Assembly: GCA_000002445.1 (NCBI GenBank)
Contig: CM000208.1
Span: 1,760,001 to 1,824,000 of the forward strand
Source of the DNA: Trypanosoma brucei
Taxonomy: Eukaryota
DNA length: 64,000 bases
Reading direction: 5' to 3'
In this document: positions 19,818 to 62,983 of the stretch, one piece after another
Layout: every line of letters begins with the position of its first letter
How positions within the stretch are numbered: the stretch's first letter is position 1
The notes under the pieces: model-generated
Seen by the model: only the letters and a program-made list of their open reading frames with translations
Database searches by the model: none
What the model was told of the DNA's origin: nothing
Made by a program: the position numbers and the translations under genes

Positions 19818-20183
19818 AAACTAAGAAATACGAATTTAAAACAACCAAAAATAACAACGCGAGGGTCCTCCTGAGAGAGTCAGCCCTGCCAACACCACAT
19901 ATCGCCATCTCCTCCAACAGCTTCTCCTCTTGCACCGTTTCTCTGTTCCCGAGCACGACGAATGACTTCCCACTATCCTCATCTACCACTACTGTGCTTT
20001 TATTTCCGTGGGTGCCCGTGTTCACAATAGCTTGCGCGTATTCCCAGTTCCAGTGTGCGCCGGTTTCGTGCGCCAGCTCTTCGATGTGAGTATACAAGTT
20101 CACAAATTTGCGAAGCTCTCGGTAGGCGTTTCTAAGAACGGGGACGTTGTTAACGGGGTCTTCCTCCCAAGTTACATCGTGTA

Positions 20184-23900: not shown

Positions 23901-24393
23901 CTATTTTCCAACAAACACTCGGCCAAAAGTGAAATTATTCCCGCAATAGTTGAAATTGCTCACGAAGAATCATATGTTTGTAAAAGAAAAAATGTATGTA
24001 TATATATAGATAAATATAATTATTGTTATTCATACGTGCGCACTCGTACATAAATGTACTGCTAATACCTACAACACATCCAAACAGAAATGCAATAATC
24101 CCAACTCGAGTACGAAGCGGAGCAACGCTCACACAACTTCGTCCCCCATACCGTTTGTGGGAACCAGTGGCACGTCACATGTGTTCACTCCCTGTTCTGT
24201 ACATGCAGAACTGTTAAATCTCAATGAGTACATGTTTACCTGATGAAAAGAAAAAACTGGGCTCAAAGACTACGAAAAAAAAATAGGTAAATAAACTCCC
24301 TCCCGATCGATCACAACATAATAAATCTTCGAAAAAAAAAACTTTCCCCCTTACCGGTCCCCTTTCATCCGGTTAAAACAAAAAACTATAGCT

Positions 24394-37774: not shown

Positions 37775-40700
37775 CTACATCTGGTGTATCATCGCAAGGG
37801 CAACGCGAAATTCTTCGTATGTCATGCGGCCGTTACCACGTCGCCTCATTCCTTCGAACATCTTTGACATCTTGCCCTTGGACGGAGGCTGTCCAAAGAA
37901 ATCCAACATCTTGATGTCTCTTTCGAAGGCTTCCCCATCGATGGTACTGCGCAAAATGTCGCATATTGAGCTGCGGTTGCCTGCAGACGATGCGGCAACG
38001 CGGGACAAGAGGGAACTGACGTAGCCCTGCTTCCGCAGCTCCTCTTTACACTCGAGTTTGCCGCCATAATGAACCCACAGACGTGGCACATCTTCCGCGG
38101 ACGCGTGCAGAAGACTCTCCCACAACCATCCCTTTAGTGCTGCCTCATCCGAATTTCTGGCGGGATTACCAAAGTAATGCTGTGGGTCGCACACCCAATC
38201 ATCTTCCCTCGATTTCGGTCTTTCGCACTCCACATCGGGCCCATTTCCACTGACCTTTTCATCAAGTCCAATGTGTGCCGGTGCCAGGGGGACAAAAGTC
38301 CCTTCCCTCTCAGTAAGGACGTCAATAAACTGCTTGGTGTCGAGCCCATGCACGAAGCTAAACATGTGACCAGTGTAGTATCCATCGTTTAACTCGTGTC
38401 GCTTACTACCTGTGTAACGAACTAGCGGGTTCTCCGCCCACTCTGACAAGTCGGTGGGGTCATGATCAACGTGACATAACGCACGAACAAGTGGGTCAGG
38501 CGCAAAATCTCCCGTGCCGCACCACAGATCGCGCTCCTTGTACGCTTGCAACGGCCCTTCACTCGCTAACACGACGTTATCGATACGGTTGGGTCTTACT
38601 GGAAGGTCATAATCCTCCCAATCAGAGAAGAGTTCACCGCGGAAAGAAGTGGGAACCGCTCTCTCGGGGTCAGGGTCACCAATGACATCGTGCAGAAACT
38701 TTTTCCAACTGCAGTCCCGCTGGTCCCAGCTCACTATATAACAGTGGACGTCATTGACGCCAGGCTCGCTCTCGATCATGCGTTCGCATTCAAAAGGAAT
38801 AGCGGCGTTGACAACGTAAACATCTTCTGCATGGAACTTCGTTATTTCCATATCGTAGGCAAGATGGACATGCTGCTGTTGCGGGAGGGACCACTTAACG
38901 TAGAGTTGCGAGGGTGTCAACGAGAAGCGGATGAGGGCCTCACGGGCGCCAACAACACGTTGCGACTTCGCGGCCTCTTTCCATTCCTCACCGAACGCGT
39001 CGTAGAAATCGTCCTCTCCACCAGGTGTCACATCCAAATAGCCATTGGTACACGTTGTTGCGTAGAGCATGGGGGAGGAAAACTGTTTTTCGATAAGTGT
39101 CGGGGTCGTTCTCTTGCGAACCTCCCGCTTTATCCGTATACCGTTTTCATTGAGAACCCTCTCCAATAGACCCATCACCTTCACGTTGCCTGCTGCATGA
39201 GGTTTCAAAATGATCATAGCGGTATTCCTGTAGAGCAATGAGGGGCCCGTCTCCGCCGGCTGCGGGGCCCTTGAAGAAACTGTCATGGGCCCTTCGGCTT
39301 CCTCCCCTAGTGTGGAATGTCGCTCCTGCGTTGGCGTGCTAGCGGTGCCATCACGTCCTCCGTCATGAGCACACTCATTAGCGGGGAGTCGCGCCGCTCC
39401 AGTTGGATCAACCTCCTCCTCCTCGCGCTTCAACTCCTCCGACAACGCGGTCATCATAAACATGACACGGGAGGTGTCACATTGGCCAAGATGTTCGAAT
39501 ATGCTCATCTTGATTCCTCCGGACAACACCTCAGGGTTTTCGACCCATGTTTGTAGCACACACTCGAGCACTCCTTTCCGCAAAAGCAAAGAACCAAGAT
39601 AATCTTCTTGAACGGAGTACTTCACACACTTCGTACGCTCTCTAATCGCCTGGATGGCACCTTGACTAACGTGCAGACCGTTACGCAGCTCATCTGGTGG
39701 TTCAGTTATCCCGTAATCTCTCCATCTGCGATTCAGTTGTCCCCGAATGCTCGTTGGCACAGCATCCGCTGGGGACTCGCTCCCAACAACCTCCTCTAAG
39801 AATGTGGGCCAGTCCATCTCACGGGGCTCCCACGACACGACATACCAGTGATGCATCGCCTCAGATGATTCGAGGAAGCATTTCAACCCCGGCATGAGGC
39901 CATTTACGACAAACACGCCATCAAACGGCAACTCAAAAATTTCAAGGCCTGGGCGAACCATCAACCGCCTTGATGCCGCCGTACACTTATAGAAGAGTTG
40001 AACAGGTGTAATGTTACTTAGCGCAACCAGCGCCTCGTACGCGTTTACCAGTACGCCGCCCTCAAGCAGGTTGCACCAACTAACCCCAAAACTCAGCTGC
40101 ACTCTGTCCCTTTCCTTCCGTGACAATTTAATAGTTGAAACATCGCAGTCCGCGTACTCCAGCTCAACAGCGTAAAGGTGCTGAACAAAATCGCGCTCAC
40201 GTAAGGTGGCAGCGCTCACATCACCTTCCTCGTCAATCCGCACCCTCGCGCGCGCAAAGACCGTCTCAACCGTCAAAGCAAAGCCACGGCACAGGGAGCC
40301 GGTCTTCATCAACACAAAAGCAGAGTTACGCGGCGCCTCGGAAAGATGTGCAAAATTCTCCGACTGGAGAAGTTGTAATGCCTCCTTGCTGTTCATCCTG
40401 CGCGCCATATCGAATAGGAATCGGCCGTCGCCACAGGGGGTACGTGGGTTTGTTAGACACCTTCTCATTACGTATGGTGTGATAGACAGTTCATCCATTC
40501 CAAAACGACACACCGCGTCACGTTTGATTCCCAACGAAAGCCACATTTGTTTCAAACGCATCGCCTCCAGAGGACTCGCGGATGCCATCACCGCACCCTC
40601 AAACGAGTCCGGTGGCCGCCGTAGCCCGGCAGCCTTCCACTCCTCACATAGGACCTGCTGCAAGCTTCCCGGTCTGGCTTCCTTAAGGTAAGGATCCCCA

Positions 40701-43700
40701 ATGATGTAATCCATAAAATGAGCGTAATCCATGTCGCTGCTATTCCACGATACTGTCAAAAAATATTTCATGTTGGCCTCACCGCAAAACGTTTCCACAG
40801 TGTGAAGGGCAAACCCGTTAACAACATAAACGTCATGGTCGGGCATCTTACCGACGAAACAGTTTGGGGCTATGCGCGCCAGAGGTTCACACATCAGCCA
40901 CCTATCCCTTAGGTATGCCGCCGAGTAGTCAAACTCCACAGCTGCGTCCACAGCGTTGAACACCTTTCGCGGGTCCCACATCGTTCCAAAAGTGCTGAGG
41001 AAAAGGGACAGGGCCTCCGAGTCGAGTGCATACTGGTAGGGAGATTGTCTGACTGCGTATTTGAATACGCCGTCCTGGACGGCGTGAGCCACGCTGCTTA
41101 GATCCTGATTTCCACCAACCATGCTTCCACTTCCGTCGATCCGTATGTTATAGTGGCGCAGAAAATCGGCGATATAGTTAATCACACGATCACTTGCTTC
41201 CGATGAAGTGCAGGCGGGATTGACCACAATGAAGGCGTAGTTCCGCTTCAAGTTTCCCTCTTCATCCTTCAGGGTTGACGAGGTGTCCCCTTCGGGGCAG
41301 AGAGGCTTCCCTTCCGCCCGCAGCACGCCTTTACATCCGTCAACACACTCTTTTCCAGTGTCCCTTTTCACCTTGTACTCGTGGCTGGACGAGAGCTCGG
41401 GGGGAACCGGCACAAATCTTGGTGCCTGGGGTGAAACGATGTGCATTCCACCAGACGACTGCAGCCCGATTAGTTGCGCTATCAGAAGTGGGTTCTCCGT
41501 GCATAACTTGTCGAACGCATCGCCCATGGACTCCAATGGCTCCTCTCTGTGTCGCACAAGGGGGTTCTCAAGTATCTTACGAAGATACCCGGGGTCTACG
41601 CCACCCATAACCAGTAACCGTCCGAAAACATCCTGTTCCAAGCTTACCCCAAGCCAAGAGACACGATCTGCAAGCCCCTCAACAGGCGTGGCAGAGGCGC
41701 AAAAACCGTTGTCAATACCGTCTGGCTGCCGTTGCAGACCGAGCTCCACCCAAGATTTGTACAGTGTGTGGCGAAGAGATGATTCCTCAGCCTTTTCTGG
41801 CACATCTGTACCGATCACGTACCGGTGGAAATCCCCCCACGTCATTATCTCGCTATCCCATGACACAACGTACCAAGAAACGTGGGAGCCAGCGTACATT
41901 CGCGAACGCAAATAAGGATAGAACCCATTGACAACATAAAGCCCCTCCCTCTCTAAGTAAGCAATGTAAAGGGAAGGAGCCAAGCACACCTTACGTGGTG
42001 CCTCATCCCAATCCTTTAGCAACTGCAAAACGCCAATCCTATCCACCGCCTGCGCTGCATTGATAACCAAATGAAGGTTCATCGCGGTATTCCACGTGAT
42101 ACCGAAGGTAGCATCAAACTCTGCCATCTGTTTTGTGCTGATGGGAATCTCGTGCACTGCGCGTGTCATGGCGTTGCGATAGAGGGTGCACTGCTTGCGG
42201 TCGGCAAGTTCCTTATCAAAGACTTCCGCCATGGGTACGCGACCCGAAGAAATTACCTCAATACGGTGTTGCAACAGTGCTTTTGGGATCCACGCTTCCA
42301 CATGCTTTGTGCATGCGTGCGGTTTGACCCACAGAAATGCGTAATTCATTTTCAAACCGCGCAAAAAACGTGAAGTAATAACCTTCATGCGACGAACCAC
42401 TTCAGAACTCTGTACGTGATACGAAAGATCAGACCTTGTATATTGTGGCAGAAAACATCCGGTTGCGCTCCAGTTCTTCCTTGATGTCCATGACTTCGGA
42501 GGTGGAGACGACGTATCATCAATATTCTTGATCGCCTTTACCCCTTCCTCCTCCTCTTCATCATCCTCATCTTGCGGGTTGCGTTCACCGTCTATGTACG
42601 TCGTAAGCATTGAAAGCGGCACACCTTCCAGTAGGAGGCGCTGTACAAAGTGGTCCTCCGGTAACTGAACGTCCAGCCAAATTTCTCGATCAACGGTACC
42701 CTCCAAAGGACCTTGCGAAACTGAAACGGCAGCAGACCAACGCGAGGCTGGCTTGAATGGCAACCCGAAACCCTTCCACTCATCCGCAAACGTGCGCTGC
42801 AAGCTTCCCTCCGTTGCTTTGTAGGGAATACAGTCGTCACTGAAACCAACCAAGCGCTCAGAGAGGTCGTGCCAAGTCCAAACATCCTCCTTCCACTCCA
42901 CATCAAAGACGTGAGTCACGCTCCCAGGTTTTCCATGGGTCTCCCGAACAAAGGGAACAAAACCATTTAGCACGTATATTTCGTGGTCGGTTAGGTGAAC
43001 CACCCAGCAGTTTGAGTGAAGCTGCACCGGTTGTACTGACTCCCACAGATGAAGGAGCTCCGTTGGTGTTAAACCCAGTACCTCGCAAGCAGAGGTTGCG
43101 CCCATCAACTGTCCACTGATAACACAACCCTCCCACGTATATCCGAATTGTGCATGAAACTGCTTTTTGATCGATGAACTGACGTTTCCGCACATATCAT
43201 CTTTTTTGAAGTCAGCCCAGTGCGCCAGCTTAAGGAATTCATTGCTGCCGAGGTACCGTTTCTCGACGCTTCTGCTCAATAATGTTAGCTCCCGCACCAC
43301 CGCTACATCAGCGGCAGCAAAACAATTCCTCACAGTTTCTATAGTCCACTCGTTGACGGCAAAGGGCCTCAGTACTACCACTGCTCGGTTGACCGATCGT
43401 TCGTTGTACTCTGCAAGAACATGCTGCTCTGCCTCGCACATAAGGTCCACGACTTCAGAAGTTTGTAAGTTCTCTAGAAGGTCAAAAACATGACCGGATC
43501 GCACCCCATCGGCCATTACAACCGCCGGATTCGACCGCCAGCCGTACAGCAGCGCACCTGTCAACCCACGCTCTTGCAGCCGTAGTGTGAGTGGATCGTG
43601 TGTGAGTGGTGATCCGATCCACAGGTAGCGCTCCAGCACTGCCTCCAGCGGACCCGCCGAGGCGTGGACCCCGTTGTTTGTTGTTGTGGGAATGCCCTGC

Positions 43701-45340
43701 AGCCCCAGTTCGCGCCAGCGGTTTTGTATCAACCCGCGCAAACTGGTTGGCGGTGCTTTGGCGGGGTTCGTACACCCAACCAGCTCCTCACGGAAGCTCC
43801 TCCAAGTCAGATGTTCTTCGAGCCATGAAACCACGTAGCACGTTACCTTCGCATCCTTCCGCTCATAGCTGTCCCGAATGTATGGAAAGAAGCCGTTAAT
43901 CACAAAAGCATTCTCCTCAGAGAGGCGCGCAACGTACGCTCCAGGGGCAACCTTCAACACATCAGTGCATGAGCACCACATCTCGTACAACTCGGTGGAG
44001 GATATATCCCCAAGGATGCGCAAGGCAGAATCAGCATTCCACACCCGTCCACTCCGAACCAACTCCTTCCAGGACATGCCAAACCGCTCCTGGAATTCTT
44101 GCATTGTTTTGGGGCTCAACTCGATCAAATCGGGTGTTAAAACAGCGGCGTACTTCGCAATGGTTCCGTAATGCTGCTCCATCACGTGCCTCGACGCTAT
44201 TTCGCTTCCAGAGATATGGTGTTGAGACAAGATTTGTACGCCCTTAACCTGTGTGAGTCGTTCCTCCACCAGCGCTCGGGTTTCGGGGGTGTTGGCGTGG
44301 GGTTTCACAAACAGCAGGGCCCTGTTGCGTACCTCGTCTGGATCTTCATCGTTTAGTACAATAGTCCAATCAGCTATGCGTGAAGGTGAAATCGGAGTAT
44401 CAGCTTGATTCTTCCGTTCACTTAGGCACTTTTGTCTCTCATCAGCATAAACAGCGGCCACTAGACAGGTAGCCTCACTACTCTGCATGTCTTCTGTAAT
44501 CTCAAATACAGAGCGACACGCGCCCTTGTAGCTGATGGGGGGATTTTTCATCAGTCCCTCAACAAAACCTCGCCCAACACCCTCTTGCAGCAGCTGCCGC
44601 CCAAAGTCATCTTCGTTGATACCACGATGCATCCACACAGAGCGGAGCGCAAGTGCCTCAATGGGCCCATTGGCATATATCAGGCCGTTGTCCGCAATGC
44701 TTGGTTGTTCACTGAGCCCGTATTCCTCCCAGTTCTCGTACATCAATCGGCGGAGGGACGTTGAGTCGGCTTCGCTGGGGTCCGCCGCGCCGATCACCTC
44801 TAAACAAAACCGTTTCCACGAGTACCGCGCCTCGGGCCATGAAAGGACGAAGAAACAAATCTTACTAGTGGGAGCGGTGAAGGAATTAAATAGCAGCGGG
44901 TAAAAGCCATTAATTACATATAGCCCTTCCTCTTTGAAATATGATACATAGAACCCGTACTCAAGCCGAACCCGCAATTTGGATGACCACCAACGGGCGT
45001 TTAATCCTTCCATAGTTGTATTGAGGGCTACCATAGCATCCTCGGGGGTCAGCACACGCCGTTCCTCCATCGCGACGGTCCAAGATTCACCAAACGCAGA
45101 GAAAAAAAGCATGGCAGACTCCTCTGAAGCGAATGTCCCCATTTCTAGAGAGGAGGACATGACACGCGCCGCAGTTGCGCTGTAATGTCGCTCCACATAC
45201 GCGCCCCGGCTAACCTCCTGGCCTGTCAGTAGCTGCATGTCGTCCACGCGAATCCCATGGGAGTCAAAATGATCTCGTGCCTTCTCAATAAACGTATCCC
45301 TGCATGCACTGGGTTTAACTAGTACGAATGATGTATTCAT
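37775..45340 (-). CDS. Giant (2521 aa) protein with about seven tandem divergent nucleoside-diphosphate-kinase-like domains and a C-terminal EF-hand-like segment
   Basis: Seven repeats of the pattern [AF][LFV].VKP.A...(beta1), then EG/D.YV[VI]NGF.P, then YVVSW...W..F, then a Kpn-loop-like stretch, then NG..AS.GP. The last element aligns to NDK NIIHGSD: His is kept in repeats 2 and 6 (NGVHASAGP, NGLHVSQGA) and lost in the others. C-terminal RRRGNGRMTYEEFRVAL resembles an EF-hand. Confidence 0.75.
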   Translation of the reverse strand: MNTSFVLVKPSACRDTFIEKARDHFDSHGIRVDDMQLLTGQEVSRGAYVERHYSATAARVMSSSLEMGTFASEESAMLFFSAFGESWTVAMEERRVLTPEDAMVALNTTMEGLNARWWSSKLRVRLEYGFYVSYFKEEGLYVINGFYPLLFNSFTAPTSKICFFVLSWPEARYSWKRFCLEVIGAADPSEADSTSLRRLMYENWEEYGLSEQPSIADNGLIYANGPIEALALRSVWMHRGINEDDFGRQLLQEGVGRGFVEGLMKNPPISYKGACRSVFEITEDMQSSEATCLVAAVYADERQKCLSERKNQADTPISPSRIADWTIVLNDEDPDEVRNRALLFVKPHANTPETRALVEERLTQVKGVQILSQHHISGSEIASRHVMEQHYGTIAKYAAVLTPDLIELSPKTMQEFQERFGMSWKELVRSGRVWNADSALRILGDISSTELYEMWCSCTDVLKVAPGAYVARLSEENAFVINGFFPYIRDSYERKDAKVTCYVVSWLEEHLTWRSFREELVGCTNPAKAPPTSLRGLIQNRWRELGLQGIPTTTNNGVHASAGPLEAVLERYLWIGSPLTHDPLTLRLQERGLTGALLYGWRSNPAVVMADGVRSGHVFDLLENLQTSEVVDLMCEAEQHVLAEYNERSVNRAVVVLRPFAVNEWTIETVRNCFAAADVAVVRELTLLSRSVEKRYLGSNEFLKLAHWADFKKDDMCGNVSSSIKKQFHAQFGYTWEGCVISGQLMGATSACEVLGLTPTELLHLWESVQPVQLHSNCWVVHLTDHEIYVLNGFVPFVRETHGKPGSVTHVFDVEWKEDVWTWHDLSERLVGFSDDCIPYKATEGSLQRTFADEWKGFGLPFKPASRWSAAVSVSQGPLEGTVDREIWLDVQLPEDHFVQRLLLEGVPLSMLTTYIDGERNPQDEDDEEEEEGVKAIKNIDDTSSPPPKSWTSRKNWSATGCFLPQYTRSDLSYHVQSSEVVRRMKVITSRFLRGLKMNYAFLWVKPHACTKHVEAWIPKALLQHRIEVISSGRVPMAEVFDKELADRKQCTLYRNAMTRAVHEIPISTKQMAEFDATFGITWNTAMNLHLVINAAQAVDRIGVLQLLKDWDEAPRKVCLAPSLYIAYLEREGLYVVNGFYPYLRSRMYAGSHVSWYVVSWDSEIMTWGDFHRYVIGTDVPEKAEESSLRHTLYKSWVELGLQRQPDGIDNGFCASATPVEGLADRVSWLGVSLEQDVFGRLLVMGGVDPGYLRKILENPLVRHREEPLESMGDAFDKLCTENPLLIAQLIGLQSSGGMHIVSPQAPRFVPVPPELSSSHEYKVKRDTGKECVDGCKGVLRAEGKPLCPEGDTSSTLKDEEGNLKRNYAFIVVNPACTSSEASDRVINYIADFLRHYNIRIDGSGSMVGGNQDLSSVAHAVQDGVFKYAVRQSPYQYALDSEALSLFLSTFGTMWDPRKVFNAVDAAVEFDYSAAYLRDRWLMCEPLARIAPNCFVGKMPDHDVYVVNGFALHTVETFCGEANMKYFLTVSWNSSDMDYAHFMDYIIGDPYLKEARPGSLQQVLCEEWKAAGLRRPPDSFEGAVMASASPLEAMRLKQMWLSLGIKRDAVCRFGMDELSITPYVMRRCLTNPRTPCGDGRFLFDMARRMNSKEALQLLQSENFAHLSEAPRNSAFVLMKTGSLCRGFALTVETVFARARVRIDEEGDVSAATLRERDFVQHLYAVELEYADCDVSTIKLSRKERDRVQLSFGVSWCNLLEGGVLVNAYEALVALSNITPVQLFYKCTAASRRLMVRPGLEIFELPFDGVFVVNGLMPGLKCFLESSEAMHHWYVVSWEPREMDWPTFLEEVVGSESPADAVPTSIRGQLNRRWRDYGITEPPDELRNGLHVSQGAIQAIRERTKCVKYSVQEDYLGSLLLRKGVLECVLQTWVENPEVLSGGIKMSIFEHLGQCDTSRVMFMMTALSEELKREEEEVDPTGAARLPANECAHDGGRDGTASTPTQERHSTLGEEAEGPMTVSSRAPQPAETGPSLLYRNTAMIILKPHAAGNVKVMGLLERVLNENGIRIKREVRKRTTPTLIEKQFSSPMLYATTCTNGYLDVTPGGEDDFYDAFGEEWKEAAKSQRVVGAREALIRFSLTPSQLYVKWSLPQQQHVHLAYDMEITKFHAEDVYVVNAAIPFECERMIESEPGVNDVHCYIVSWDQRDCSWKKFLHDVIGDPDPERAVPTSFRGELFSDWEDYDLPVRPNRIDNVVLASEGPLQAYKERDLWCGTGDFAPDPLVRALCHVDHDPTDLSEWAENPLVRYTGSKRHELNDGYYTGHMFSFVHGLDTKQFIDVLTEREGTFVPLAPAHIGLDEKVSGNGPDVECERPKSREDDWVCDPQHYFGNPARNSDEAALKGWLWESLLHASAEDVPRLWVHYGGKLECKEELRKQGYVSSLLSRVAASSAGNRSSICDILRSTIDGEAFERDIKMLDFFGQPPSKGKMSKMFEGMRRRGNGRMTYEEFRVALAMIHQM

Positions 45341-52312: not shown

Positions 52313-55300
52313 TCACCTGCGACGCCTCTGCTTAGAGATTCTCCACGAGTTTCCGCTCTCCCATGCGCGCAGAATTGGATTAAGGCGTTCGGCACGTTGC
52401 TCTTTCGTTAATTTCCCCTTCCGCGGTTTGCTGTAAAACGCTGGGGCGAGTTCCACAAGCCAACGTGGCTCGATGGCCAGTATCTCACGCATGTACTCGC
52501 GGCTTGTTAATTGAACCTCGTTGTACAAGAGATATTTTGGTGGTGTGTCCCGTAAACAGGACGAAGGATGAACATAAACCTCGCGCCGCTCCGCAAGCGT
52601 GGCGTAGGCCACGTCCGTGATACGTCTTGCAGCATTGAAAAAGTACCCAGCGGTAATGGCCCGTCGCACCTCCGTAAGTGAGGAGTCGTTATGATGCTCA
52701 ATGTTTGTATGTCGCTTCCGCAACATTTCGCTAAGTTGGTCACGGGTATCGCGAGCCTCCATAAGCATGCGGTGTTTTAAGAAGTTCCGCTTACACCAGT
52801 TTTCGCTCAGACCGTTGGCCACCCATGCATCGTACACAGCAAGCAGTGTAATGTGGTCACCCTCCGGTTGGTGAAACTGCCGCTTTGCTGCATCTGCCGC
52901 CTCGTGTTGATCACGCGGCCGGTAAAATACGCCACGCTTTTGAGCTGCGAGCATAGAGACTATGGTGAGCACGGGCTCGCTGCAACCCAAGTCGACAGCC
53001 GTAAGAAGTGTCTTGCTGTGCGAGGGATCAATGGGCAAATGAGCCATACGACCTCCCAGCGGCGTCAGAAGCCCATCCTCATCCAATGCCTCGAGGTAGC
53101 GCAACTTTTGTAACGCCGTCACCAGCGTCTCTTGGGGAGGTGGATCCATGAGGTCCAGAGCGAAGAGGTCATTAATTCCCATTGCCTTCAATTGCAGAAC
53201 TACGTGGAACAAGTTCGAACGCTGAATATCAGGAACGGTGGCAGGGTCCATATCCTGGCGAAACTGAATCTCCGTGTACATACGAAAGCACTTGCCGGGC
53301 CCAATACGCCCTGCACGCCCGGCCCGTTGACGCGCTTGTGCTTGCGAGATGGGCATGATTTTGAGTTGCTCCATCCCTGTCTTCGGGTCGAACACATTTT
53401 GCTTACTATACCCGCTGTCCACCACGTAAGAAAGGTTACTAATTGTAATGGAAGTTTCTGCGACATTTGTGGCGAGCACGACCTTCCTGCAATGTGGCGG
53501 CGTCGGCTCGAAAACGCGTGACTGCACATCTTGTGGCAGTGTCGCAGTTAAGGGGAGGATGAGCATGTCCGGCACCGGGAGGTCACTGAGGCCCCGAAGC
53601 CGCTCCATCCAGCGGAAGAGACGGTCACCACCAAACTCAATCTCCTCTTGTCCTGTAAGAAATACAAGGACATCGCCTGGTGGCTCCTCAAGATGTAACT
53701 TCATCACAGTTTTTAGAGCACAGTCGAGGTAATCCTCCGTTGGCTCCGCAAGGAAATACGTGTCAACAGGAAAAGTGCGACCTTCGATAAAAAACACATC
53801 GTGGACGTTGAAGTACGAACAGAATTTCTCCCTCTCAAGTGTGGCAGAAGTGACAATAACTTTTAGTGTTGGCCGCTTGTGTGTTGCGTTGCGTACAATT
53901 GCAAAGAGCAAATCAGTGTTGACCGACCGCTCGTGTGCCTCATCGAGGATGATAACGCTATACCTCTGAAATGAGTCATCAAGAAGGGCTTCACGCAGCA
54001 ACATACCGTCTGTCATGTACTTTATGCACGTGAGGGAAGATGTGACATCGCGAAACCGGACAGTGTAACCGACTTCCTCACCGAGGCGGCAACCGTACTC
54101 CTCGGCCACACGGATTGCAAGTGTCTCCGCCGCCACTCGCCGGGGTTGGGTGCAACAAACAACACCGTTCTTACCGTAACCGTGCTCAACAAGATACTGA
54201 GGAATTTGTGTTGTTTTGCCACTGCCAGTTTCTCCCACCAACACAGTTACTGCATGTGCATCAACGTGCTGTAGGAACCGATCACGAAATGCATAAATGG
54301 GCAGCGAACGACGCTGCTCTGCAAGGCTCTCAGAGGTTTCCATCATACCGAAGCGGGGCTTCTCCCCGAAACTGTGTTTCATCCACGGTGGAAGCGCAGA
54401 ACGAGAACCACGGCCAAGTCCGCCCCTATGGAGGTGTTCTTCCGGGCGCTCTAATAATTCCCGATCGAGGAACGTATTGCCCTTGTAGTGGGTTCCATCC
54501 TCCTCGTTATTACCCTCCTCATCATCTCCCTCTTCCTTTCTGTCAGCAGCATCATTCGGTTCATAGAAACCGCGCGCCTGCTCTGCCAACCGCTGCTGCC
54601 GCCGCTCCTTCGCTTGAAGAATCTGCCGCTCCTTGTTACGTTGCTGCTGCGCCAAGGCAGCACGCTTCATGGTATTAGTTTCAATCTCTTCGGCGCAAGC
54701 TTGTTGCACGACGCGGCGTGCAATGATGGCTTCTCGCTGTGCCGGTGTGCTCGCCCTCATCAACTGCTCGGACGGCAACAACGCCCGGTAGTTGATGGGT
54801 TTGTGTCGCACCAACCCACGCAAGAACAGGGGTTCTTCTTCATTCAGCTCCACCTGCTCCACATCCTCATCATCCGTCTTAACCTGAAGTAATTCCGACT
54901 CATCCAGTAACCCGGTGCGTACCAACTGCGCCAACTGCATTTTCTCCTCCGCTCTCACCTTCATCGCCGCTCTGCGCTCCGCGGGGTCCACTGAAAGGTC
55001 CTGCAAAGTCCTTTGTCTACCGGCGGCGCTGTCGCCTCCCTCGTTTGCATCCCGTCGGGCCTCCTCTTCCTGCAGAATCTTTTGCCTGAGAGTTTCTTCA
55101 ATTTCCCGCCGTTCCTGCTCCACGATGGCGAGTGCCCCAGCTGCGAGACATTTCGACCAGTCGATGTCACCCAAAAGTGATCGCATTAGGCACGCAAGGT
55201 CCTGCAACTGCGAGAGCTGTATGGGTGGCTCATCATTCTCATCTCCATTGATAGCGCTATCAAGCGCGTCAACCAGCGACTTGTTTCTCTCCTCTGCTGA

Positions 55301-55540
55301 AACTTCCTTCAAGTCATCACTATCCCGTTTTTTTTCATTCGCCTCAGCGAAAAGAGAAACAAGCCCCTCCACGTCATCATAAAGTCCCTCTGCCTCCGCC
55401 GCACTCTCCGGCCTACCAAGCACGTGCTCTAGCCTGTGGTACAGCTCATTTTTGCTGTAAATGAGTTGCAATTTCCTCAGCACACATAACTCATCGCTCA
55501 TTACCTTTTCGCCGCACTTTTTTCCCGGCGCAACCCCCAC
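52313..55540 (-). CDS. DEAH-box ATP-dependent RNA helicase, spliceosomal PRP16/PRP22 (DHX38/DHX8) family
   Basis: Motif I VLVGETGSGKTTQIPQYL, Ia CTQPRRVAA, II IILDEAHERS, III TSATL, FLTGQEEIE, IV-V VLATNVAETSITI, VI QRAGRAGR. The helicase-associated HA2/OB C-terminal region is present. N-terminal acidic/coiled extension. Confidence 0.9.
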   Translation of the reverse strand: MGVAPGKKCGEKVMSDELCVLRKLQLIYSKNELYHRLEHVLGRPESAAEAEGLYDDVEGLVSLFAEANEKKRDSDDLKEVSAEERNKSLVDALDSAINGDENDEPPIQLSQLQDLACLMRSLLGDIDWSKCLAAGALAIVEQERREIEETLRQKILQEEEARRDANEGGDSAAGRQRTLQDLSVDPAERRAAMKVRAEEKMQLAQLVRTGLLDESELLQVKTDDEDVEQVELNEEEPLFLRGLVRHKPINYRALLPSEQLMRASTPAQREAIIARRVVQQACAEEIETNTMKRAALAQQQRNKERQILQAKERRQQRLAEQARGFYEPNDAADRKEEGDDEEGNNEEDGTHYKGNTFLDRELLERPEEHLHRGGLGRGSRSALPPWMKHSFGEKPRFGMMETSESLAEQRRSLPIYAFRDRFLQHVDAHAVTVLVGETGSGKTTQIPQYLVEHGYGKNGVVCCTQPRRVAAETLAIRVAEEYGCRLGEEVGYTVRFRDVTSSLTCIKYMTDGMLLREALLDDSFQRYSVIILDEAHERSVNTDLLFAIVRNATHKRPTLKVIVTSATLEREKFCSYFNVHDVFFIEGRTFPVDTYFLAEPTEDYLDCALKTVMKLHLEEPPGDVLVFLTGQEEIEFGGDRLFRWMERLRGLSDLPVPDMLILPLTATLPQDVQSRVFEPTPPHCRKVVLATNVAETSITISNLSYVVDSGYSKQNVFDPKTGMEQLKIMPISQAQARQRAGRAGRIGPGKCFRMYTEIQFRQDMDPATVPDIQRSNLFHVVLQLKAMGINDLFALDLMDPPPQETLVTALQKLRYLEALDEDGLLTPLGGRMAHLPIDPSHSKTLLTAVDLGCSEPVLTIVSMLAAQKRGVFYRPRDQHEAADAAKRQFHQPEGDHITLLAVYDAWVANGLSENWCKRNFLKHRMLMEARDTRDQLSEMLRKRHTNIEHHNDSSLTEVRRAITAGYFFNAARRITDVAYATLAERREVYVHPSSCLRDTPPKYLLYNEVQLTSREYMREILAIEPRWLVELAPAFYSKPRKGKLTKEQRAERLNPILRAWESGNSWRISKQRRRR

Positions 55541-57008: not shown

Positions 57009-60000
57009 TCATCGTCTTCTATCCGGCGACTCCTGAGGAGAAAAAAGGAATCTCGTCATCATCTCCCGATTACGTCGTAGCGCCATGGGCCCCGACGGCA
57101 CGTCATCAAATCCCTTCGACGGGCTGCCTCCCTCATGAGCATCGAGGTGTTTCATGAGTGTTCGCCGCCCTGACAACTTCCGCTTTACCTTCTCAAATTT
57201 CACAAGACCGTAAGGACTGCGACCCTTATCCATCAGGTTACCAATTTCAATAAATTTAGGAACATCGACAGTCCAAAACATACCAAAGACAGTGTGCTCC
57301 GCCTCCCACAGCAATACAGACTTGGTATCGGGGTTGTACGCCTTTATCAGTGCTGCACTGCGGCCAAAACCCACCACGTCATGCGCTATGGCAGTGTCGT
57401 AGTTCAGGAGGAGAACTGTGTTATTATTCTCCCGACGTGTGGCATCTCTAAGAATCGAATCGATATTCCCTTCCGTCACATCCTCCATGACCTCCACATG
57501 CACAAGCCACTCTTCATCATTGTGTTCATCGATTTGACTGTCACTTGACCCCCTTGTAGAATTGCGAGATTCCAGAAACATGCGGCAAATCTGGGCGAGA
57601 AATACTGTATCGATTTGCTTGTTAATCACTGAAAGAGATACATCCACGTCACGCCACGCAAATGCCTGAGTCCCCCGGCGACGTTGACGGTTCATTGTCT
57701 GAAGGTACGCCTCGTAAAATATCTCCTCTGGTGAGTAGAAGAATCCAAGCTGGGTGAAGGCGCACGAAAGTGCCTGGAAATGCGGCGATGGGCTAACATG
57801 GAAAATGTTCCGTAGAGGCAGCATACGCAACGGTGTTTCTCGAGAATACTCAAGTGGAAACGATGGTGCCGGAAGAGTCGTGCAGTGTGACACTTTAAGG
57901 AAGCCACAACGGCGGTGAACGGTGTCCGCATCATGCATGGCCCTGAAGAGAGTGTGGAGGCACACGGACCATGTGCGGAAGTATCGGTTGGGATTCGTAT
58001 CCATCACCGTCACGCCGCCGGTTGCCTTATTGTAACCAACAACTAGGCCTGTGGAACCAAATGGACGGGAGTCACCGAACACCTCAATTTCATTTGTGTT
58101 GAACAACATGACGAGGGCCTTGCCACGGTCCGCCAAGCATTCCTCCATGATTTGTTCAAACTCCTCGACGGTTACACGTGCTTTGTTGCCGTTTCGCCTG
58201 TCAGTATGATAGGCCTTTACGCTTACATTAAGACCGACATGCTCCACGTACGTCGTGAGGCAAACAGCCATTGATTCAAGCGTGAAGTAGCGCAGCATCA
58301 ACGACGATATTTCGAAGGGTAGGGCAACAATAACGTCTTCAAATGTCGTAGGACAGCCCAACTCCGTTAAAGTTAGCGCAATCATCGTTGGGCTCAATGG
58401 CAATGATGGAAAACACAATGTTCTCATCACCTCCCTTCTCGTCACACCGAGTGCATCTTGGTCCCTTAGTAGAGCGAGGTATCTTTGCACAGTTGGATCC
58501 ACGCGCCTCAAGGCCCCAACCCGCGGAGCCTGCGATTCATGTCCCAAAGGCAGCGAGTCACACCATGTCTCATCATGACTTAATCCCACATGTGTGCTGG
58601 CTGCGGTGCGCTTGGAGAATATAAGGTATCCGTTTGAGGTCATAGCCCGATGCAGGCGTTCAAGTGAACAAGTCCAGAGCTTCATGAACTTCTTCGGGTG
58701 CGCATCAATAAGCGACACCACCTGTGACTCCTCATCATAACCGGAGAGCACGCACCACTGGGGAGTATTGCTGACGTACAGGACATTGTGCGCAACGTTA
58801 GCATTATACATAATCACCATGACGTGCTCCGGGGCGTCAGGATCCTTGTTTGCATTCTTTACGTCGGTGAGAATTGACTCCAGCTCGAACACAGAGATGG
58901 TTGGCACCGCGTCTTCTCGAGAGGTGTTTGTGAGAATAGGGTAAATGGAGACATCGTAATTACGCTCCGTAAGGCGGATGTACTCTCGCGCGTATTTGAA
59001 TACCTCTCCCAACGGCAGCGTGCTGTCGATGAGCACCTCTGCTGGAAACTTCATGGTGCGGACAATATCCGAAACTGGTAGCCCATTACCGTGGCCGTGC
59101 GCACTTGCTCTGTCACCTCCGAGAAGGTGCATCGCCCACGCAACTGCGATGATGTGAGGGCTGGTGTGGCCTGAGATGGCAGAGGCATGGGTTCCCATAG
59201 ATGTCGTGCCAAGTACATTTCCTCCCGCCAGTTCAGGCGAGAACATGGATTGAACTTCGTCGTGGGACATCACCGGCACGCTATCCTTGCGAAAGATACG
59301 CATGAAACCACGCGCTCGTTCATTCTCCAACGGTACTGTCATCGCCTTGAAAAGGGCTGCGGCAGGAACTTCAAACAACCTTACGTGCAACTGATCATCA
59401 ACGATACCTTCTGCGAGGGTAACCATCAGCTCCACTACACACCGCACCTCCACAATAACAGCGTACACTCCATTGTTATTTTTAGAATATTGCCTCTCCT
59501 GATCCCTTAATCCAACACGGATAGAGTCTGCGAGGGCGGAGACGTCGTCATCTCCATCCACAAAGTTGTCAACGAATGTTTCCTGCTGGAGAACGTATGG
59601 ATCATAATTTACAATGCGTACTGCTTGAATCTGCTCTTCACTGTCGTTGGCTATGGCTTTTGTGAACTCGTGCAACTGCATGCACGTCTGCCGATCGCCC
59701 ACCTCGTTGCGACCAAGTTCCACCTGCCCAACGACGGGCGAGATGTCAAAATGGACAACAGAAAGGCCATACTCGTTCTTGAAGCGATTGTCAACATCAA
59801 TAAACTCACGGAGAATGTCGCTCATGACCTGTAGTGTCTGGACACCGCTGTGGAGGTAGTGGAGGGGTAAGTGGACAGCAAAAAATATATCTTCCATGGT
59901 AACGCACTTTTTGCGATCCCTGCAGCCGCGCGCACCTCCGAGAAGGTAGGAAAGAGCAACTGCAGCAGCACCAAAGTGGCCGCATTCCATAATAGCCTTA

Positions 60001-60476
60001 TGCTCGTAATCCCGCTGCACCTCGTAACTCTTGAAGAATGCCATACGGGCTTTGCGAATTTCTACCACCTGTTGGCGGCTTCTGTGTTGACCTACAAGGG
60101 ATCCAGTCCTCGATTGCTCCGCATTGTTAATGTTACTCGTGTTGCCTGATTGGTTCGTTCCCCACGACCGCCCGTTGTTTTCGTTGGGCGTTTGGTTCTG
60201 TCGCCGTGGGGGCTGGTGCTCGGTACACGACGACTCAGAGCCCCCAGCTGTCGTGCTGAATGAAACCTGCGAGGACCGACACGCTCCGCGCATTGAACCC
60301 TCCAATACCTCTTCATTTCCACTGCGCGCGTCTTCTGCACCGCCGTAGTAAACCCGATCCCTTTCCATTGCACGGCGGCCTGAATTTGACACCTTCTCAA
60401 GTGCTGCCAGAGCGGCTTCCCACTTCCTGAGGTGCTCCTCAGTGGAGGCACGGGCATTAATTTGGCCGTTCCCCAT
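57009..60476 (-). CDS. Large protein with four tandem phytochelatin-synthase-like (papain-fold Cys-His-Asp) domains
   Basis: Repeat 3 aligns to plant PCS: VGYNKATGGVTVMDTNPNRYFRTWSVCLHTLFRAMHDADTVHRRCGFLKVS against [51 protein letters not shown]. Repeat 1 carries a catalytic-Cys-like ECGHFGAAAVALSYLLGG (PCS EPAYCGLASLSVVLNAL). Repeats 2 and 4 carry AHNV/AHDV (His) and LIDAHPKKFMKLW. Confidence 0.6.
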   Translation of the reverse strand: MGNGQINARASTEEHLRKWEAALAALEKVSNSGRRAMERDRVYYGGAEDARSGNEEVLEGSMRGACRSSQVSFSTTAGGSESSCTEHQPPRRQNQTPNENNGRSWGTNQSGNTSNINNAEQSRTGSLVGQHRSRQQVVEIRKARMAFFKSYEVQRDYEHKAIMECGHFGAAAVALSYLLGGARGCRDRKKCVTMEDIFFAVHLPLHYLHSGVQTLQVMSDILREFIDVDNRFKNEYGLSVVHFDISPVVGQVELGRNEVGDRQTCMQLHEFTKAIANDSEEQIQAVRIVNYDPYVLQQETFVDNFVDGDDDVSALADSIRVGLRDQERQYSKNNNGVYAVIVEVRCVVELMVTLAEGIVDDQLHVRLFEVPAAALFKAMTVPLENERARGFMRIFRKDSVPVMSHDEVQSMFSPELAGGNVLGTTSMGTHASAISGHTSPHIIAVAWAMHLLGGDRASAHGHGNGLPVSDIVRTMKFPAEVLIDSTLPLGEVFKYAREYIRLTERNYDVSIYPILTNTSREDAVPTISVFELESILTDVKNANKDPDAPEHVMVIMYNANVAHNVLYVSNTPQWCVLSGYDEESQVVSLIDAHPKKFMKLWTCSLERLHRAMTSNGYLIFSKRTAASTHVGLSHDETWCDSLPLGHESQAPRVGALRRVDPTVQRYLALLRDQDALGVTRREVMRTLCFPSLPLSPTMIALTLTELGCPTTFEDVIVALPFEISSLMLRYFTLESMAVCLTTYVEHVGLNVSVKAYHTDRRNGNKARVTVEEFEQIMEECLADRGKALVMLFNTNEIEVFGDSRPFGSTGLVVGYNKATGGVTVMDTNPNRYFRTWSVCLHTLFRAMHDADTVHRRCGFLKVSHCTTLPAPSFPLEYSRETPLRMLPLRNIFHVSPSPHFQALSCAFTQLGFFYSPEEIFYEAYLQTMNRQRRRGTQAFAWRDVDVSLSVINKQIDTVFLAQICRMFLESRNSTRGSSDSQIDEHNDEEWLVHVEVMEDVTEGNIDSILRDATRRENNNTVLLLNYDTAIAHDVVGFGRSAALIKAYNPDTKSVLLWEAEHTVFGMFWTVDVPKFIEIGNLMDKGRSPYGLVKFEKVKRKLSGRRTLMKHLDAHEGGSPSKGFDDVPSGPMALRRNREMMTRFLFSPQESPDRRR

Positions 60477-62983
60477 CTGTCAGATTTCACCCTAAACCGT
60501 CACTATTCTACACCCCGTTTCCGGAAACTCGCTTGATCACTACCTTTAGCCCGTAGTGGTAGAGACACTGCTTCAATAATAAGTTTCGAAGCCACACCCT
60601 TTCCTTCTTACTTGAATACAGCGTACAAGAGTACATATAAATGGAGGTAGACAAATATAGGCATGGTGACATACAAATCAAAAAACTGACCTGTACGAAG
60701 CGACGTACAGGAGTAAAGGTGGTGACGGTGAGGGGAAACAACGAAGAGGAGGAAAAACATCGAAAAAAAAAAATTCTGCCCAACGGTTGAAGCAAACAAA
60801 TCTCTTAACGTGCACTGCTCCTCTTGTTATAGGCAAAATTGCAGAAATTTTGCTCATGTGTGGCGGGGTTCCGCGCACAGCGCTGCTGAATAACAAGATT
60901 TGACGCCGGCGGCATAAATATCACAAGCAAAGCCAAATAGAACCCGTGGGTGTTTTCACGGTCCCCAGAGGGATTTATATCTTTTATTTTTTTTTTTTAG
61001 TCTCCGTTATTGCTAATACTCATCCTTCCCTTTTCTCATTTTTCAACCTAAAAAATTAGAAAAGGAAGCGGGACATCTACGTATTTATTTATTTTTTTTT
61101 ACAAGTTAAAGAAAAACGAGGAGAACCAAAAGGAGGAGAAAAACAAGAAACAACGACAACGACAACAACAATCGGAGACGTGGCCGTTGTCCACTTCCCA
61201 TTGTGGGTTACACTAATCGGGGAATAACAACCAAGATTTAGCGAAAGAAGAAAAATGTGTGTTTTTCCATCAGCAAACAAAAACAGAAATCAGCTAACAG
61301 GAGGAGGCCGCGTATAGCGTTCTCCCCTCACTCCTTTCCCTCTCGTTTATTTTGCATTTTCATTTCTTTTCACTTTCTAAACAAGGGAGGAACAGCGCCG
61401 AGAAGGTGGAGAGACCACAACAAGCAAAAAAAAAAAAAAAGACGAATGTGGACCTTTGAAGAATGGAACTAAACCCGTTACCAATTGTTTTTTTTTCCTC
61501 TTCCTCTCTCCTCTTTGTCTTCCGCATAGCTTGAATTATTATTATTATTGTTATATATATATATATATATATATAGCCCCCTATATTCTTTTCTCTCCAC
61601 TTCTTCTTCCTTTTGCTTTTCTTTCGGTAATGTTGTGTCACGTGGCCCAAAGGGAGCGTATGGAAGGGAAGGGAGAAGCCTAAATCAAAATGTCAAGTGG
61701 TTGAGCGTAGAGCAAAAGTTGTCACATGACATCATGACGAAACAACGAAGGAAACAATAACGTTACTAGTGACAAAAGTGGGTGCGCCAAAAGAAGACAA
61801 GGAGGAGGAGGAGGAGGAGGAGGAAGAACCCAAAGAAGGTAGACAAGTATAATAAAAAAAAAAGCGAGAGAAAAAAAAAAGAGAAGAGAAAAGAAAAGAA
61901 AAAAGAAGAGAGGCGCATGGCATATAAAATACCTGCAGTATCCCGCCCCCGCCCCACACACACACACACACCACGTGTTTTTAAAGCATTCCCTTCATTA
62001 CAACTACTGTTTATACCTCCTTTTTATTTACCCACACCCTTCACCACAAACAATTGCGCGCCCCTCGCCTTTTTTACTCACAGCTCCCGTCCAACATCAA
62101 GCGCCCATCCCACAAATAAAGAGAGAGAGAGGGAGAGAGAAAAAGGGGGAAAGAAAAAGGGTAGAAAACACACACAAACATTAGCATATAAATGCATCAT
62201 TATAAACGCCTCCATCATCGCCTGGAAACTTCAGCATTCACAGGCTTCCATGAACAAATCGGCAACACCCGAACAGCACACATGAACGTCCAGTTTCTCT
62301 TTTTTTAGCATCTCTCCTCCCTCACCCCTTTTTTTTTCTTCTACGCATCCACTTGCATATAAAAATATAAATATACACGAGTTTTATACCTTGCAGCTTC
62401 CCAGCTCCCTCTTTTTTTTTTTATTTGTTCTTTAGATCATCTTCGGTGTGTGGGGGGGGGGGGCTTTTCTTTTGGCTGTAGTGGCGCCGTTGCCCCGCTA
62501 ATCCGCACACCTTCAGGTTGTTTGTAGCTCATTTATTTACTTTATTTTTACATTTCGTTCTTAGCGTTTGTTTTTTTTTCTGTATATAAAACCGAGAAGA
62601 AAAGAGCCAACTAGACCAAAACGAAGCAAAAAAAAGGAGGAGGAATGTGAACTCCGTTTGTTTTCTTTCGGTTTGTTTCTTCTAATTGTTTTATTTTCTC
62701 TTGAATTCGCATCAAGTTAGAAATACAGGTTAATTACAAAAAAAAAAACCGGAACAAACCAAACGGAGAGGGGGAAAAGGCCACTAGAAGTGAGCTTCAT
62801 GGGGGAGAGAAAGAAGAGGAGAGGCCAACAAAAAACGAAGCGAAAAAAAAAATGTTGATGAGAACCCCTAACCGTACTTTTGTTGTTATTATTATTATTA
62901 TTTTTTTCCCACCCCTTCCAGTCTTCCCCCCTGTCCCTTTCCTCTTCCTCCTCCAAAAAGTAATCAAACCATCACTGTGGTTC

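What the first reader, a model, noticed from the sequence alone, without database searches (positions are those of the whole stretch)
57009..60476. 1155-aa protein built from four tandem phytochelatin-synthase-like domains
Four consecutive modules of about 220 aa each resemble the catalytic domain of phytochelatin synthase (PCS, gamma-glutamylcysteine dipeptidyl transpeptidase; papain-fold Cys-His-Asp). The clearest alignment is VGYN...VMDTNPNRYFRTWSV.LHTLFRAM...RCGFLKVS against plant PCS GGYN...[23 protein letters not shown]...RRGFMLIS. A Cys-containing helix (ECGHFGAAAVALSYLLGG) sits at the PCS catalytic-Cys position in module 1. The catalytic residues appear differently conserved between modules: for example, the His is lost in module 3 (PFGSTGLVVGYN) but retained in modules 2 and 4 (AHNV, AHDV). 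That would suggest a mix of active and inactive domains. A tandem 4x PCS-fold architecture is, to my knowledge, not a described protein class. Trypanosomatids rely on trypanothione rather than phytochelatins, so the substrate (glutathione or trypanothione conjugates?) is open. An N-terminal MGNGQ start may allow myristoylation.
Basis: partly seen in the sequence, partly recalled or inferred. Interest (0 to 1): 0.78.

Follow-up and report, generated by a model that had tools for sequence, protein, structure and literature searches.

The report
Four-domain dead phytochelatin-synthase-like trypanosome protein
This Trypanosoma brucei gene encodes a conserved, probably lipid-anchored protein built from four tandem copies of the phytochelatin-synthase fold, none of which keeps the full catalytic machinery, so it is most likely a non-catalytic scaffold or binding protein and not the enzyme its database name suggests.

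The parts
57009..60476 (-). Complete CDS, 1155 aa plus stop. It is T. b. brucei TREU927 XP_822964.1 / EAN78136.1 / UniProt Q38AN4.
   Evidence: ORF listing. Exact-sequence look-up. 31 full-length orthologues across Kinetoplastea.
60456..60476 (-). N-terminal myristoylation-type motif, MGNGQIN (aa 1-7). Gly2 is conserved. Residue 6 is Ser in 19 of 20 orthologues but Ile in T. brucei.
   Evidence: Orthologue N-termini. The T. cruzi orthologue K4DZS1 was enriched by azidomyristate in LFQ and SILAC experiments and reduced by DDD85646 (PMC4974623 Tables S2, S4, S5).
60363..60455 (-). Conserved N-terminal helix (aa 8-38) containing the HLxKWExAL motif.
   Evidence: DSSP helix 8-38 in the AF2 model. 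H15 and W19 are invariant.
60087..60362 (-). Disordered low-complexity linker (aa 39-130). It holds the conserved R-x-S-S-x-V-S-F motif (aa 67-73; window 60258-60278), a possible basophilic-kinase site.
   Evidence: pLDDT below 50. S69, V71, S72 and F73 are nearly invariant. Alignment view. The phosphorylation reading is inference only.
59262..60071 (-). Module 1 (aa 136-405): PCS-like papain-fold domain with two disordered insertions. Residues at the catalytic columns are C165 (one column before the nucleophile), V337 (His column) and E356 (Asp column).
59976..59984 (-). C165-G166-H167, the conserved C-x-H motif at the N-cap of the module 1 core helix.
   Evidence: C165 and H167 are each 95% conserved. 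The helix spans 166-179. Column mapping is stable under four alignment settings.
58557..59261 (-). Module 2 (aa 406-640): PCS-like domain. Catalytic columns hold S439/P440 (nucleophile region), Q573 (His column) and D591 (Asp column). All pocket positions are at least 90% conserved.
   Evidence: hhalign 99.3%, E 2.3e-20. Conservation. The His column is His in T. vivax and in the diplonemid, euglenid and Papus relatives.
57837..58556 (-). Module 3 (aa 641-880): the most PCS-like module in sequence and the least conserved among orthologues. Catalytic columns hold S695/P696, S808 and D826.
   Evidence: Alone it scores 24.5 bits on PF05023. hhalign 99.7%, E 3e-26. Residue-level alignment to NsPCS.
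57912..58226 (-). The stretch that gives the direct Pfam PF05023 hit and the direct PDB Alr0975 sequence hit (aa 751-855).
57177..57836 (-). Module 4 (aa 881-1100): PCS-like domain with a helical insertion. Catalytic columns hold S897/P898, S1040 and E1058 (E1060 is invariant). The insertion carries the conserved motif QRRRGTQAFAWRD (aa 931-943; window 57648-57686).
   Evidence: hhalign 98.0%, E 1.8e-13. Same secondary-structure order as the other modules. Motif conservation.
57012..57176 (-). Disordered, poorly conserved C-terminal tail (aa 1101-1155).
   Evidence: pLDDT below 50. Mean conservation 0.30.
60691..60776 (-). Polypyrimidine tract followed by AG about 215 nt upstream of the ATG. 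This is a candidate trans-splicing acceptor region (inferred).
   Evidence: Read directly from the sequence. No experimental mapping is available here.

Best explanation
The gene encodes a conserved protein of Euglenozoa. It has an N-terminal myristoylation motif, a short conserved helix, a disordered linker, and then four tandem domains that all descend from the phytochelatin-synthase (papain-fold, clan CA) catalytic domain. None of the four keeps the Cys-His-Asp triad plus oxyanion Gln that PCS chemistry needs. The protein is therefore not a phytochelatin synthase. It most likely acts as a membrane-tethered pseudoenzyme, meaning a scaffold or ligand-binding protein whose remodelled but strongly conserved former active-site pockets bind a partner instead of turning over glutathione. 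The pockets in question carry the [C/S]-x-H motif in modules 1, 2 and 4, and H563, Q573 and D591 in module 2. Shown here: the architecture, the fold, the state of the catalytic columns, conservation, and the family's distribution. Shown in the literature for the T. cruzi orthologue only: NMT-dependent myristoylation. Inferred: membrane association in T. brucei, the non-catalytic role, and the nature of the ligand.
Against: No experiment on this protein was found, so loss of activity is predicted from sequence only. Catalytic residues can migrate in pseudoenzymes, and C165 plus H167 are conserved strongly enough to suggest chemistry. I could not inspect model coordinates, so the pocket geometry is untested. 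T. brucei has Ile at residue 6 where almost all orthologues have Ser. The protein was not among the T. brucei or Leishmania orthologues listed in Table S7 of PMC4974623, and the Leishmania N-terminal string is absent from the L. donovani myristoylome supplements. Myristoylation of the T. brucei protein itself is therefore unproven.
Confidence: 0.6

Rival explanations
1. The protein keeps a non-canonical thiol-dependent enzymatic activity. C165 in module 1 would be the nucleophile. Its general base would be H167 (C-x-H), or another conserved His such as H206, or a residue donated by a neighbouring module in the compact four-domain assembly. The other modules would serve as substrate-binding or regulatory domains.
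For: C165 is conserved in 19 of 20 orthologues and in most distant relatives. H167 is 95% conserved. C165 sits at the N-cap of the core helix, where papain-fold nucleophiles sit. It aligns with the first Cys of the N-C-C motif of catalytically intact PCS-like relatives. An acidic residue (E356) is kept at the Asp column. Some relatives have fuller triads, namely P0037 module 1 (C/H/E) and P0058 module 2 (C/H/D).
Against: The canonical His column is Val or Ala in module 1 throughout kinetoplastids. The oxyanion Gln is absent. Every alignment setting places C165 one column before the nucleophile. A residue two positions along the same helix turn is poorly placed to act as a general base; this last point is inference, since the geometry was not inspected.
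Confidence: 0.25
2. It is a genuine phytochelatin synthase (glutathione gamma-glutamylcysteinyltransferase), as the automatic UniRef and GenBank names state.
For: PF05023 is hit above the gathering threshold. The name 'Phytochelatin synthase' appears in UniRef and in T. equiperdum GenBank records.
Against: The catalytic His and the oxyanion Gln are absent from all four domains, and Cys is absent from three. The Pfam hit covers only the C-terminal half of one domain. Pfam finds no Cys-rich PCS C-terminal domain. The names are domain-transfer annotations, and no paper on the protein was found.
Confidence: 0.03
3. The four-fold PCS resemblance is an artefact of weak profile matches, and only module 3 is truly PCS-related.
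For: Modules 1, 2 and 4 have no direct Pfam or PDB sequence hit. The direct M1-M4 hhalign comparison is insignificant at 1.2%.
Confidence: 0.02

Closest known systems
Phytochelatin synthase catalytic domain (Pfam PF05023, MEROPS family C83, clan CA), for example Nostoc Alr0975/NsPCS (PDB 2BTW, 2BU3, 6TJL) and Arabidopsis AtPCS1
   Different: There are four tandem copies instead of one. No module has the catalytic His or the oxyanion Gln. Cys is present only in module 1 and is offset by one column. There is no Cys-rich C-terminal domain. The protein adds an N-terminal myristoylation motif and disordered linkers. It is therefore not expected to make phytochelatins.
Single-domain eukaryotic PCS-like subfamily with motifs QQxINCC, IAHG, GGGHF and ADVHPxKY (for example the Eutreptiella gymnastica protein UniRef A0A7S4LL99; P0100, P0106, P0109)
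   Same: These are the closest sequence relatives of the modules.
   Different: They are single-domain and keep the Cys, His and Asp columns, so they are plausibly active enzymes. The trypanosome modules have lost the His.
Kinetoplastid calpain-like proteins (CAP5.5 and the small calpain-related proteins): N-acylated clan CA proteins, several of which lack catalytic residues according to established knowledge of the family
   Same: This is a functional analogy. Both are papain-superfamily domains that have lost catalytic residues, carry an N-terminal MG acylation motif, and are conserved across kinetoplastids. CAP5.5 and calpain-like proteins appear in the same T. cruzi myristoylome set as this protein's orthologue (Table S5).
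   Different: They belong to a different family of the clan (C2 calpain, not C83 PCS). No calpain domain is detected here. The four-fold tandem arrangement is not a calpain feature. This is an analogy, not membership.
Plasmodium SERA5, a papain-fold protein with Ser in place of the catalytic Cys
   Different: It belongs to the C1 papain family, has a single domain, and is secreted. There is no specific relationship.

Membership tests
Phytochelatin synthase (PF05023 / MEROPS C83 / EC 2.3.2.15) | Significant match to the PF05023 profile | tested here: met
   31.5 bits against a cutoff of 24.9 for the whole protein, through module 3 only. Module 3 alone scores 24.5 bits. Modules 1, 2 and 4 have no direct hit but score 98.0-99.3% by profile-profile comparison.
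Phytochelatin synthase (PF05023 / MEROPS C83 / EC 2.3.2.15) | PCS-type papain fold | tested here: met
Phytochelatin synthase (PF05023 / MEROPS C83 / EC 2.3.2.15) | Nucleophile Cys (AtPCS1 C56 / NsPCS C70) | tested here: inconclusive
   Module 1 has the conserved C165, but it lies one column before C56 in every alignment, at the helix N-cap. Modules 2-4 have S-P-H, S-P-T and S-P-H, with no Cys within two residues either side.
Phytochelatin synthase (PF05023 / MEROPS C83 / EC 2.3.2.15) | Catalytic His (AtPCS1 H162 / NsPCS H183) | tested here: not met
   The column holds V337, Q573, S808 and S1040 in modules 1-4 under all alignment settings. All 23 single-domain relatives have His there.
Phytochelatin synthase (PF05023 / MEROPS C83 / EC 2.3.2.15) | Catalytic Asp (AtPCS1 D180 / NsPCS D201) | tested here: met
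   D591 (M2) and D826 (M3). Glu occupies the column in M1 (E356) and M4 (E1058, with E1060 invariant).
Phytochelatin synthase (PF05023 / MEROPS C83 / EC 2.3.2.15) | Oxyanion-hole Gln (AtPCS1 Q50) | tested here: not met
   The column holds K160, S435, P690 and a gap.
Phytochelatin synthase (PF05023 / MEROPS C83 / EC 2.3.2.15) | Cys-rich C-terminal domain of eukaryotic PCS | tested here: not met
   Pfam reports no family other than PF05023 at E up to 10. The C-terminal tail is disordered and poorly conserved.
Phytochelatin synthase (PF05023 / MEROPS C83 / EC 2.3.2.15) | Gamma-glutamylcysteine transpeptidase activity | not testable with these tools
   This needs an enzyme assay with glutathione and metal ions.
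N-myristoyltransferase substrates | Gly at position 2 after the initiator Met | tested here: met
   The protein starts MGNGQI. Gly2 is conserved in orthologues.
N-myristoyltransferase substrates | Small or hydroxyl residue (Ser/Thr preferred) at position 6 | tested here: not met
   T. brucei has Ile6. 19 of 20 aligned orthologues have Ser6, including T. congolense.
N-myristoyltransferase substrates | Experimental NMT-dependent labelling | not tested
   This is shown only for the T. cruzi orthologue K4DZS1 / TcCLB.507681.210 (PMC4974623 Tables S2, S4, S5). The T. brucei dataset (PMID 27331140) is not held.
Kinetoplastid calpain-like proteins (analogy only) | Calpain (C2) catalytic-core domain | tested here: not met

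The most novel reading that the evidence does not exclude
An ancient protein class specific to Euglenozoa, in which a PCS-type gamma-glutamyl-thiol enzyme was quadruplicated, lipid-anchored and progressively inactivated. Module 2 still has His and Asp in the diplonemid, euglenid and T. vivax forms. The result would be a membrane-associated sensor or binder of glutathione, glutathionylspermidine or trypanothione-type thiols, possibly redox-responsive through the surviving C165-x-H167 motif and regulated through conserved RRxS sites.
Probability: 0.15. Interest if true: 0.75.

Novelty: new variant of a known kind. Interest (0 to 1): 0.55.

Why it matters
Trypanosomatids run their thiol metabolism on trypanothione and are not known to make phytochelatins. 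Even so, public databases label this conserved 1155-aa protein 'phytochelatin synthase'. This analysis corrects that name: the catalytic His and oxyanion Gln are missing from every domain. It also defines an architecture of four tandem PCS-fold domains behind a myristoylation motif, which I could not find described anywhere. The architecture is conserved from euglenids and diplonemids to Leishmania and Trypanosoma, which implies an important function that is still unknown. The work yields concrete, testable residues (G2, C165, H167 and the S439/H441/H563/Q573/D591 pocket) and an evolutionary series in which catalytic residues are lost stepwise. That series is useful for studying how pseudoenzymes arise. 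Because the family appears absent from the hosts (inference), it may also interest parasite biologists if it proves essential.

Tried and rejected
1. Self-BLASTP with permissive settings found no internal repeat, so the repeat is visible only with profiles.
2. NCBIfam gave only a sub-threshold chance hit.
3. A single-sequence PDB search gave nothing relevant, and the module 1 profile gave no PDB sequence hit.
4. Literature searches found no paper on this protein. Terms tried were phytochelatin synthase with T. brucei, kinetoplastid, Leishmania and gene-ID prefixes, plus Q38AN4, TcCLB.507681.210, and PCS-like with pseudoenzyme or tandem.
5. I could not obtain the Tb927 gene ID, and an attempt through the neighbouring CRAM gene failed. 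TrypTag, RIT-seq and phosphoproteome data therefore could not be consulted.
6. The T. brucei lipidation dataset (PMID 27331140) is not held. The L. donovani myristoylome supplements contain no match to the Leishmania N-terminal string.
8. The last profile search, using distant relatives, returned only 5 proteins because of the word index. Contig look-ups for P0058 and P0075 gave unnamed ENA assemblies. Distribution beyond the named Euglenozoa is therefore undetermined.
9. Gene neighbourhood was considered and rejected as functional evidence. The neighbours (DEAH helicase, Spo11-like, CRAM) are unrelated, as expected in trypanosome polycistrons.
10. The order of domain duplication could not be resolved from the pairwise profile scores.
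Full report
**1. Observation.**

The window holds a single long ORF at 57009..60476 on the minus strand: 1155 aa, starting MGNGQ. An exact-sequence look-up identifies it as T. b. brucei TREU927 XP_822964.1 / EAN78136.1 / UniProt Q38AN4 on chromosome 10. GenBank calls it 'hypothetical protein, conserved', and UniRef auto-names it 'Phytochelatin synthase'. A database search returns 31 full-length orthologues at 34-99% identity. They come from Trypanosoma, Leishmania, Porcisia, Leptomonas, Novymonas, Phytomonas, Strigomonas, Trypanoplasma borreli and unnamed bodonid-like sources.

**2. Is it PCS-like, and are there four modules?**

- **Direct sequence evidence.** Pfam gives one family, PF05023 (Phytochelatin), at 31.5 bits against a gathering cutoff of 24.9 (E 1.3e-7). 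The hit covers only aa 751-855, which match profile positions 111-205 of 210. Thirteen of 20 orthologues hit the same family individually, with a best E of 5.9e-11. A profile of the orthologue alignment hits the Nostoc PCS-like protein Alr0975 (2BTW, 6TJL) at E about 7e-6, again through the C-terminal half of module 3.
- **Modules scanned alone.** Only module 3 (aa 641-880) reaches PF05023, at 24.5 bits. Modules 1, 2 and 4 hit nothing, and self-BLAST sees no repeat.
- **Profile-profile comparison between modules.** Slices of the orthologue alignment give M2-M3 99.2% (E 3.5e-19), M1-M3 97.7%, M3-M4 95.8% and M2-M4 95.9%. The pairs M1-M2 (53%) and M1-M4 (1%) are weak and are linked only through module 3. 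The N-terminal region used as a control gives 0.1-0.3%.
- **Each module against a PCS-like reference.** I built the reference from 23 single-domain PF05023-positive relatives plus the AtPCS1 N-domain. Each module scores 98.0-99.7% over 176-207 columns, while reversed-profile controls score at most 0.8%.
- **Structure.** The AF2 model of the whole protein has pLDDT 67 and pTM 0.68. It shows four folded modules with the same element order, H-H-H-H-E-H-E-(H)-E-E-E-H-E, separated by disordered linkers. Its top nine Foldseek PDB matches are all Alr0975 (E 2.4e-6 to 2.2e-5, TM about 0.5-0.63 on the target), followed by other clan CA folds.

The four-domain PCS-fold architecture is therefore confirmed.

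**3. State of the catalytic machinery.**

PCS uses Cys56-His162-Asp180 (AtPCS1 numbering; Cys70-His183-Asp201 in NsPCS) plus an oxyanion Gln. This is established knowledge of family C83. Among the 23 single-domain relatives, all keep the His. All that cover the region keep the Cys. All keep the Asp except P0130, which has Glu.

In the trypanosome protein the catalytic columns read as follows:

| Module | Oxyanion Gln (Q50) | Y55 column | Nucleophile (C56) | His (H162) | Asp (D180) |
|---|---|---|---|---|---|
| M1 | K160 | C165 | G166 | V337 | E356 |
| M2 | S435 | S439 | P440 | Q573 | D591 |
| M3 | P690 | gap | gap (S695-P696 follow) | S808 | D826 |
| M4 | gap | S897 | P898 | S1040 | E1058 |

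- The His and Asp assignments are identical under four alignment regimes. HMMER's own alignment to NsPCS gives the same result for module 3.
- The only cysteine near a nucleophile position is C165 in module 1. It is conserved in 19 of 20 orthologues and in most distant relatives. It sits at the N-cap of the core helix 166-179.
- C165 is consistently one column before C56. It aligns with the first Cys of the relatives' N-C-C motif.
- Modules 1, 2 and 4 share a [C/S]-x-H motif at this spot: C165-G-H167, S439-P-H441 and S897-P-H899.

No domain has a complete triad.

**4. Selection and evolution.**

- **Conservation of the former pockets.** They have not decayed. In module 2, S439, H441, H563, Q573 and D591 are 90-100% conserved, whereas only 33% of module 2 columns reach 90%. 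C165 and H167 are each 95% conserved, and S1040 and E1060 are invariant. Module 3 is the most PCS-like module in sequence but the least conserved (mean 0.52).
- **Wider family.** An exhaustive HMM search of 1.84 billion representatives finds 147 hits. Module HMMs show the M1-M2-M3(-M4) order in many divergent proteins of about 900-1500 aa.
- **Named sources.** These include the diplonemid Artemidia motanka, the euglenid Entosiphon sulcatum and Papus ankaliazontas, which has two paralogues. A second, highly divergent paralogue of 1350-1550 aa occurs in Leishmaniinae and Phytomonas.
- **Stepwise loss.** In the divergent relatives and in T. vivax, the module 2 His column is His, whereas core kinetoplastids have Gln. 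P0058 has Cys/His/Asp in module 2, and P0037 has Cys/His/Glu in module 1. Loss of catalytic residues therefore looks stepwise and lineage-specific.

**5. Lipidation.**

- **Motif.** The N-terminus is M-G-x-G-x-S followed by a conserved HLxKWE helix, in kinetoplastids and in diplonemid-type relatives. T. brucei alone among the 20 aligned orthologues has Ile at residue 6.
- **Experimental evidence from T. cruzi.** In the T. cruzi N-myristoylome study (PMC4974623), the orthologue K4DZS1 (TCSYLVIO_005055 = TcCLB.507681.210, 1183 aa, about 58% identical) is enriched after azidomyristate labelling in both LFQ and SILAC designs (FDR-corrected p 0.0094, LFQ difference 8.09).
- **Inhibitor sensitivity.** The enrichment falls with the NMT inhibitor DDD85646, to -1.63 at 2xEC50 and -3.44 at 8xEC50, both significant. 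The protein is listed among the consistently enriched proteins, and the NMT predictor rates it 'RELIABLE'.
- **Gaps.** No orthologue was listed for the Leishmania or T. brucei enrichment sets. The T. brucei dataset itself could not be read.

**6. Mechanism.**

The best-supported reading is a membrane-tethered pseudoenzyme: four degenerate PCS-fold domains whose conserved pockets bind something instead of catalysing gamma-glutamylcysteine transfer. The close functional analogy is the kinetoplastid calpain-like proteins such as CAP5.5. They are also clan CA proteins with an N-terminal acylation motif, several lack catalytic residues (established knowledge of that family), and they sit in the same T. 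cruzi myristoylome table.

The main rival is residual non-canonical thiol chemistry at C165/H167. Conserved RRxS-type motifs in the N-terminal linker (aa 67-73) and in the module 4 insertion (aa 931-943) hint at phosphoregulation, which is inference only. Gene neighbours are uninformative.

**7. Novelty and verdict.**

The PF05023 domain hit is already in public annotation, so PCS-relatedness itself is known. Four things appear undescribed in the searchable literature: the four-fold architecture, the systematic loss of catalytic residues, the distribution across Euglenozoa, and the link to an experimentally supported myristoylation.

I rate this a new variant of a known kind, with moderate interest (0.55).

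Noticed in passing
window 24394-27840 (-): This is the CRAM gene, with 77 copies of the PF07016 repeat (1613 bits). The repeat array also produces long spurious ORFs on both strands (24485-27661 + and 24732-27707 -).
   Followed up: partly
window 18754-24394: Coding strand switches here. ORFs of at least 200 aa lie on the + strand up to 18754 and on the - strand from 24394 onward, which suggests a boundary between polycistronic units. An AT-rich stretch (GC 0.31-0.35) lies at 4001-8000.
   Followed up: no
window 37775-45340 (-): A 2521-aa ORF whose only Pfam signal is a partial nucleoside-diphosphate-kinase domain (aa 518-575, 32 bits).
   Followed up: no
window 52313-55540 (-) and 35339-36700 (-): The immediate downstream neighbour is a DEAH-box helicase (DEAD, Helicase_C, HA2 and OB_NTP_bind domains). 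A Spo11/Top6A-like protein lies further along the same unit.
   Followed up: partly
P0081, P0085, P0223-P0233 (Novymonas, Phytomonas, Leishmania, Leptomonas, Lotmaria): A second, much more divergent multi-module PCS-like paralogue of 1350-1550 aa, always annotated 'hypothetical', exists in Leishmaniinae and Phytomonas. The word-indexed search found no Trypanosoma copy.
   Followed up: partly
P0104 (1208 aa, unknown taxon): A catalytically intact PCS-like domain is fused to a Flavoprotein domain, ankyrin repeats and a gamma-glutamyl cyclotransferase (GGACT) domain. This combines two gamma-glutamyl-related activities in one protein.
   Followed up: no
window 58758-58760 (codon Q573), compared with P0008 and P0042-P0055: The catalytic-His column of module 2 is Gln in core kinetoplastids. 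It is His in T. vivax and in the diplonemid, euglenid and Papus relatives. P0058 has a full Cys/His/Asp set in module 2.
   Followed up: partly
window 60258-60278 and 57648-57686 (-): Two conserved basophilic motifs lie in low-confidence regions: RxSSxVSF at aa 67-73, and QRRRG[ST]QAFAWRD at aa 931-943. Both resemble R-R-x-S kinase consensus sites.
   Followed up: no
window 60459-60461 (codon 6): T. brucei has Ile at residue 6 of the myristoylation motif, where 19 of 20 orthologues, including T. congolense, have Ser. This may weaken NMT recognition in this species.
   Followed up: partly
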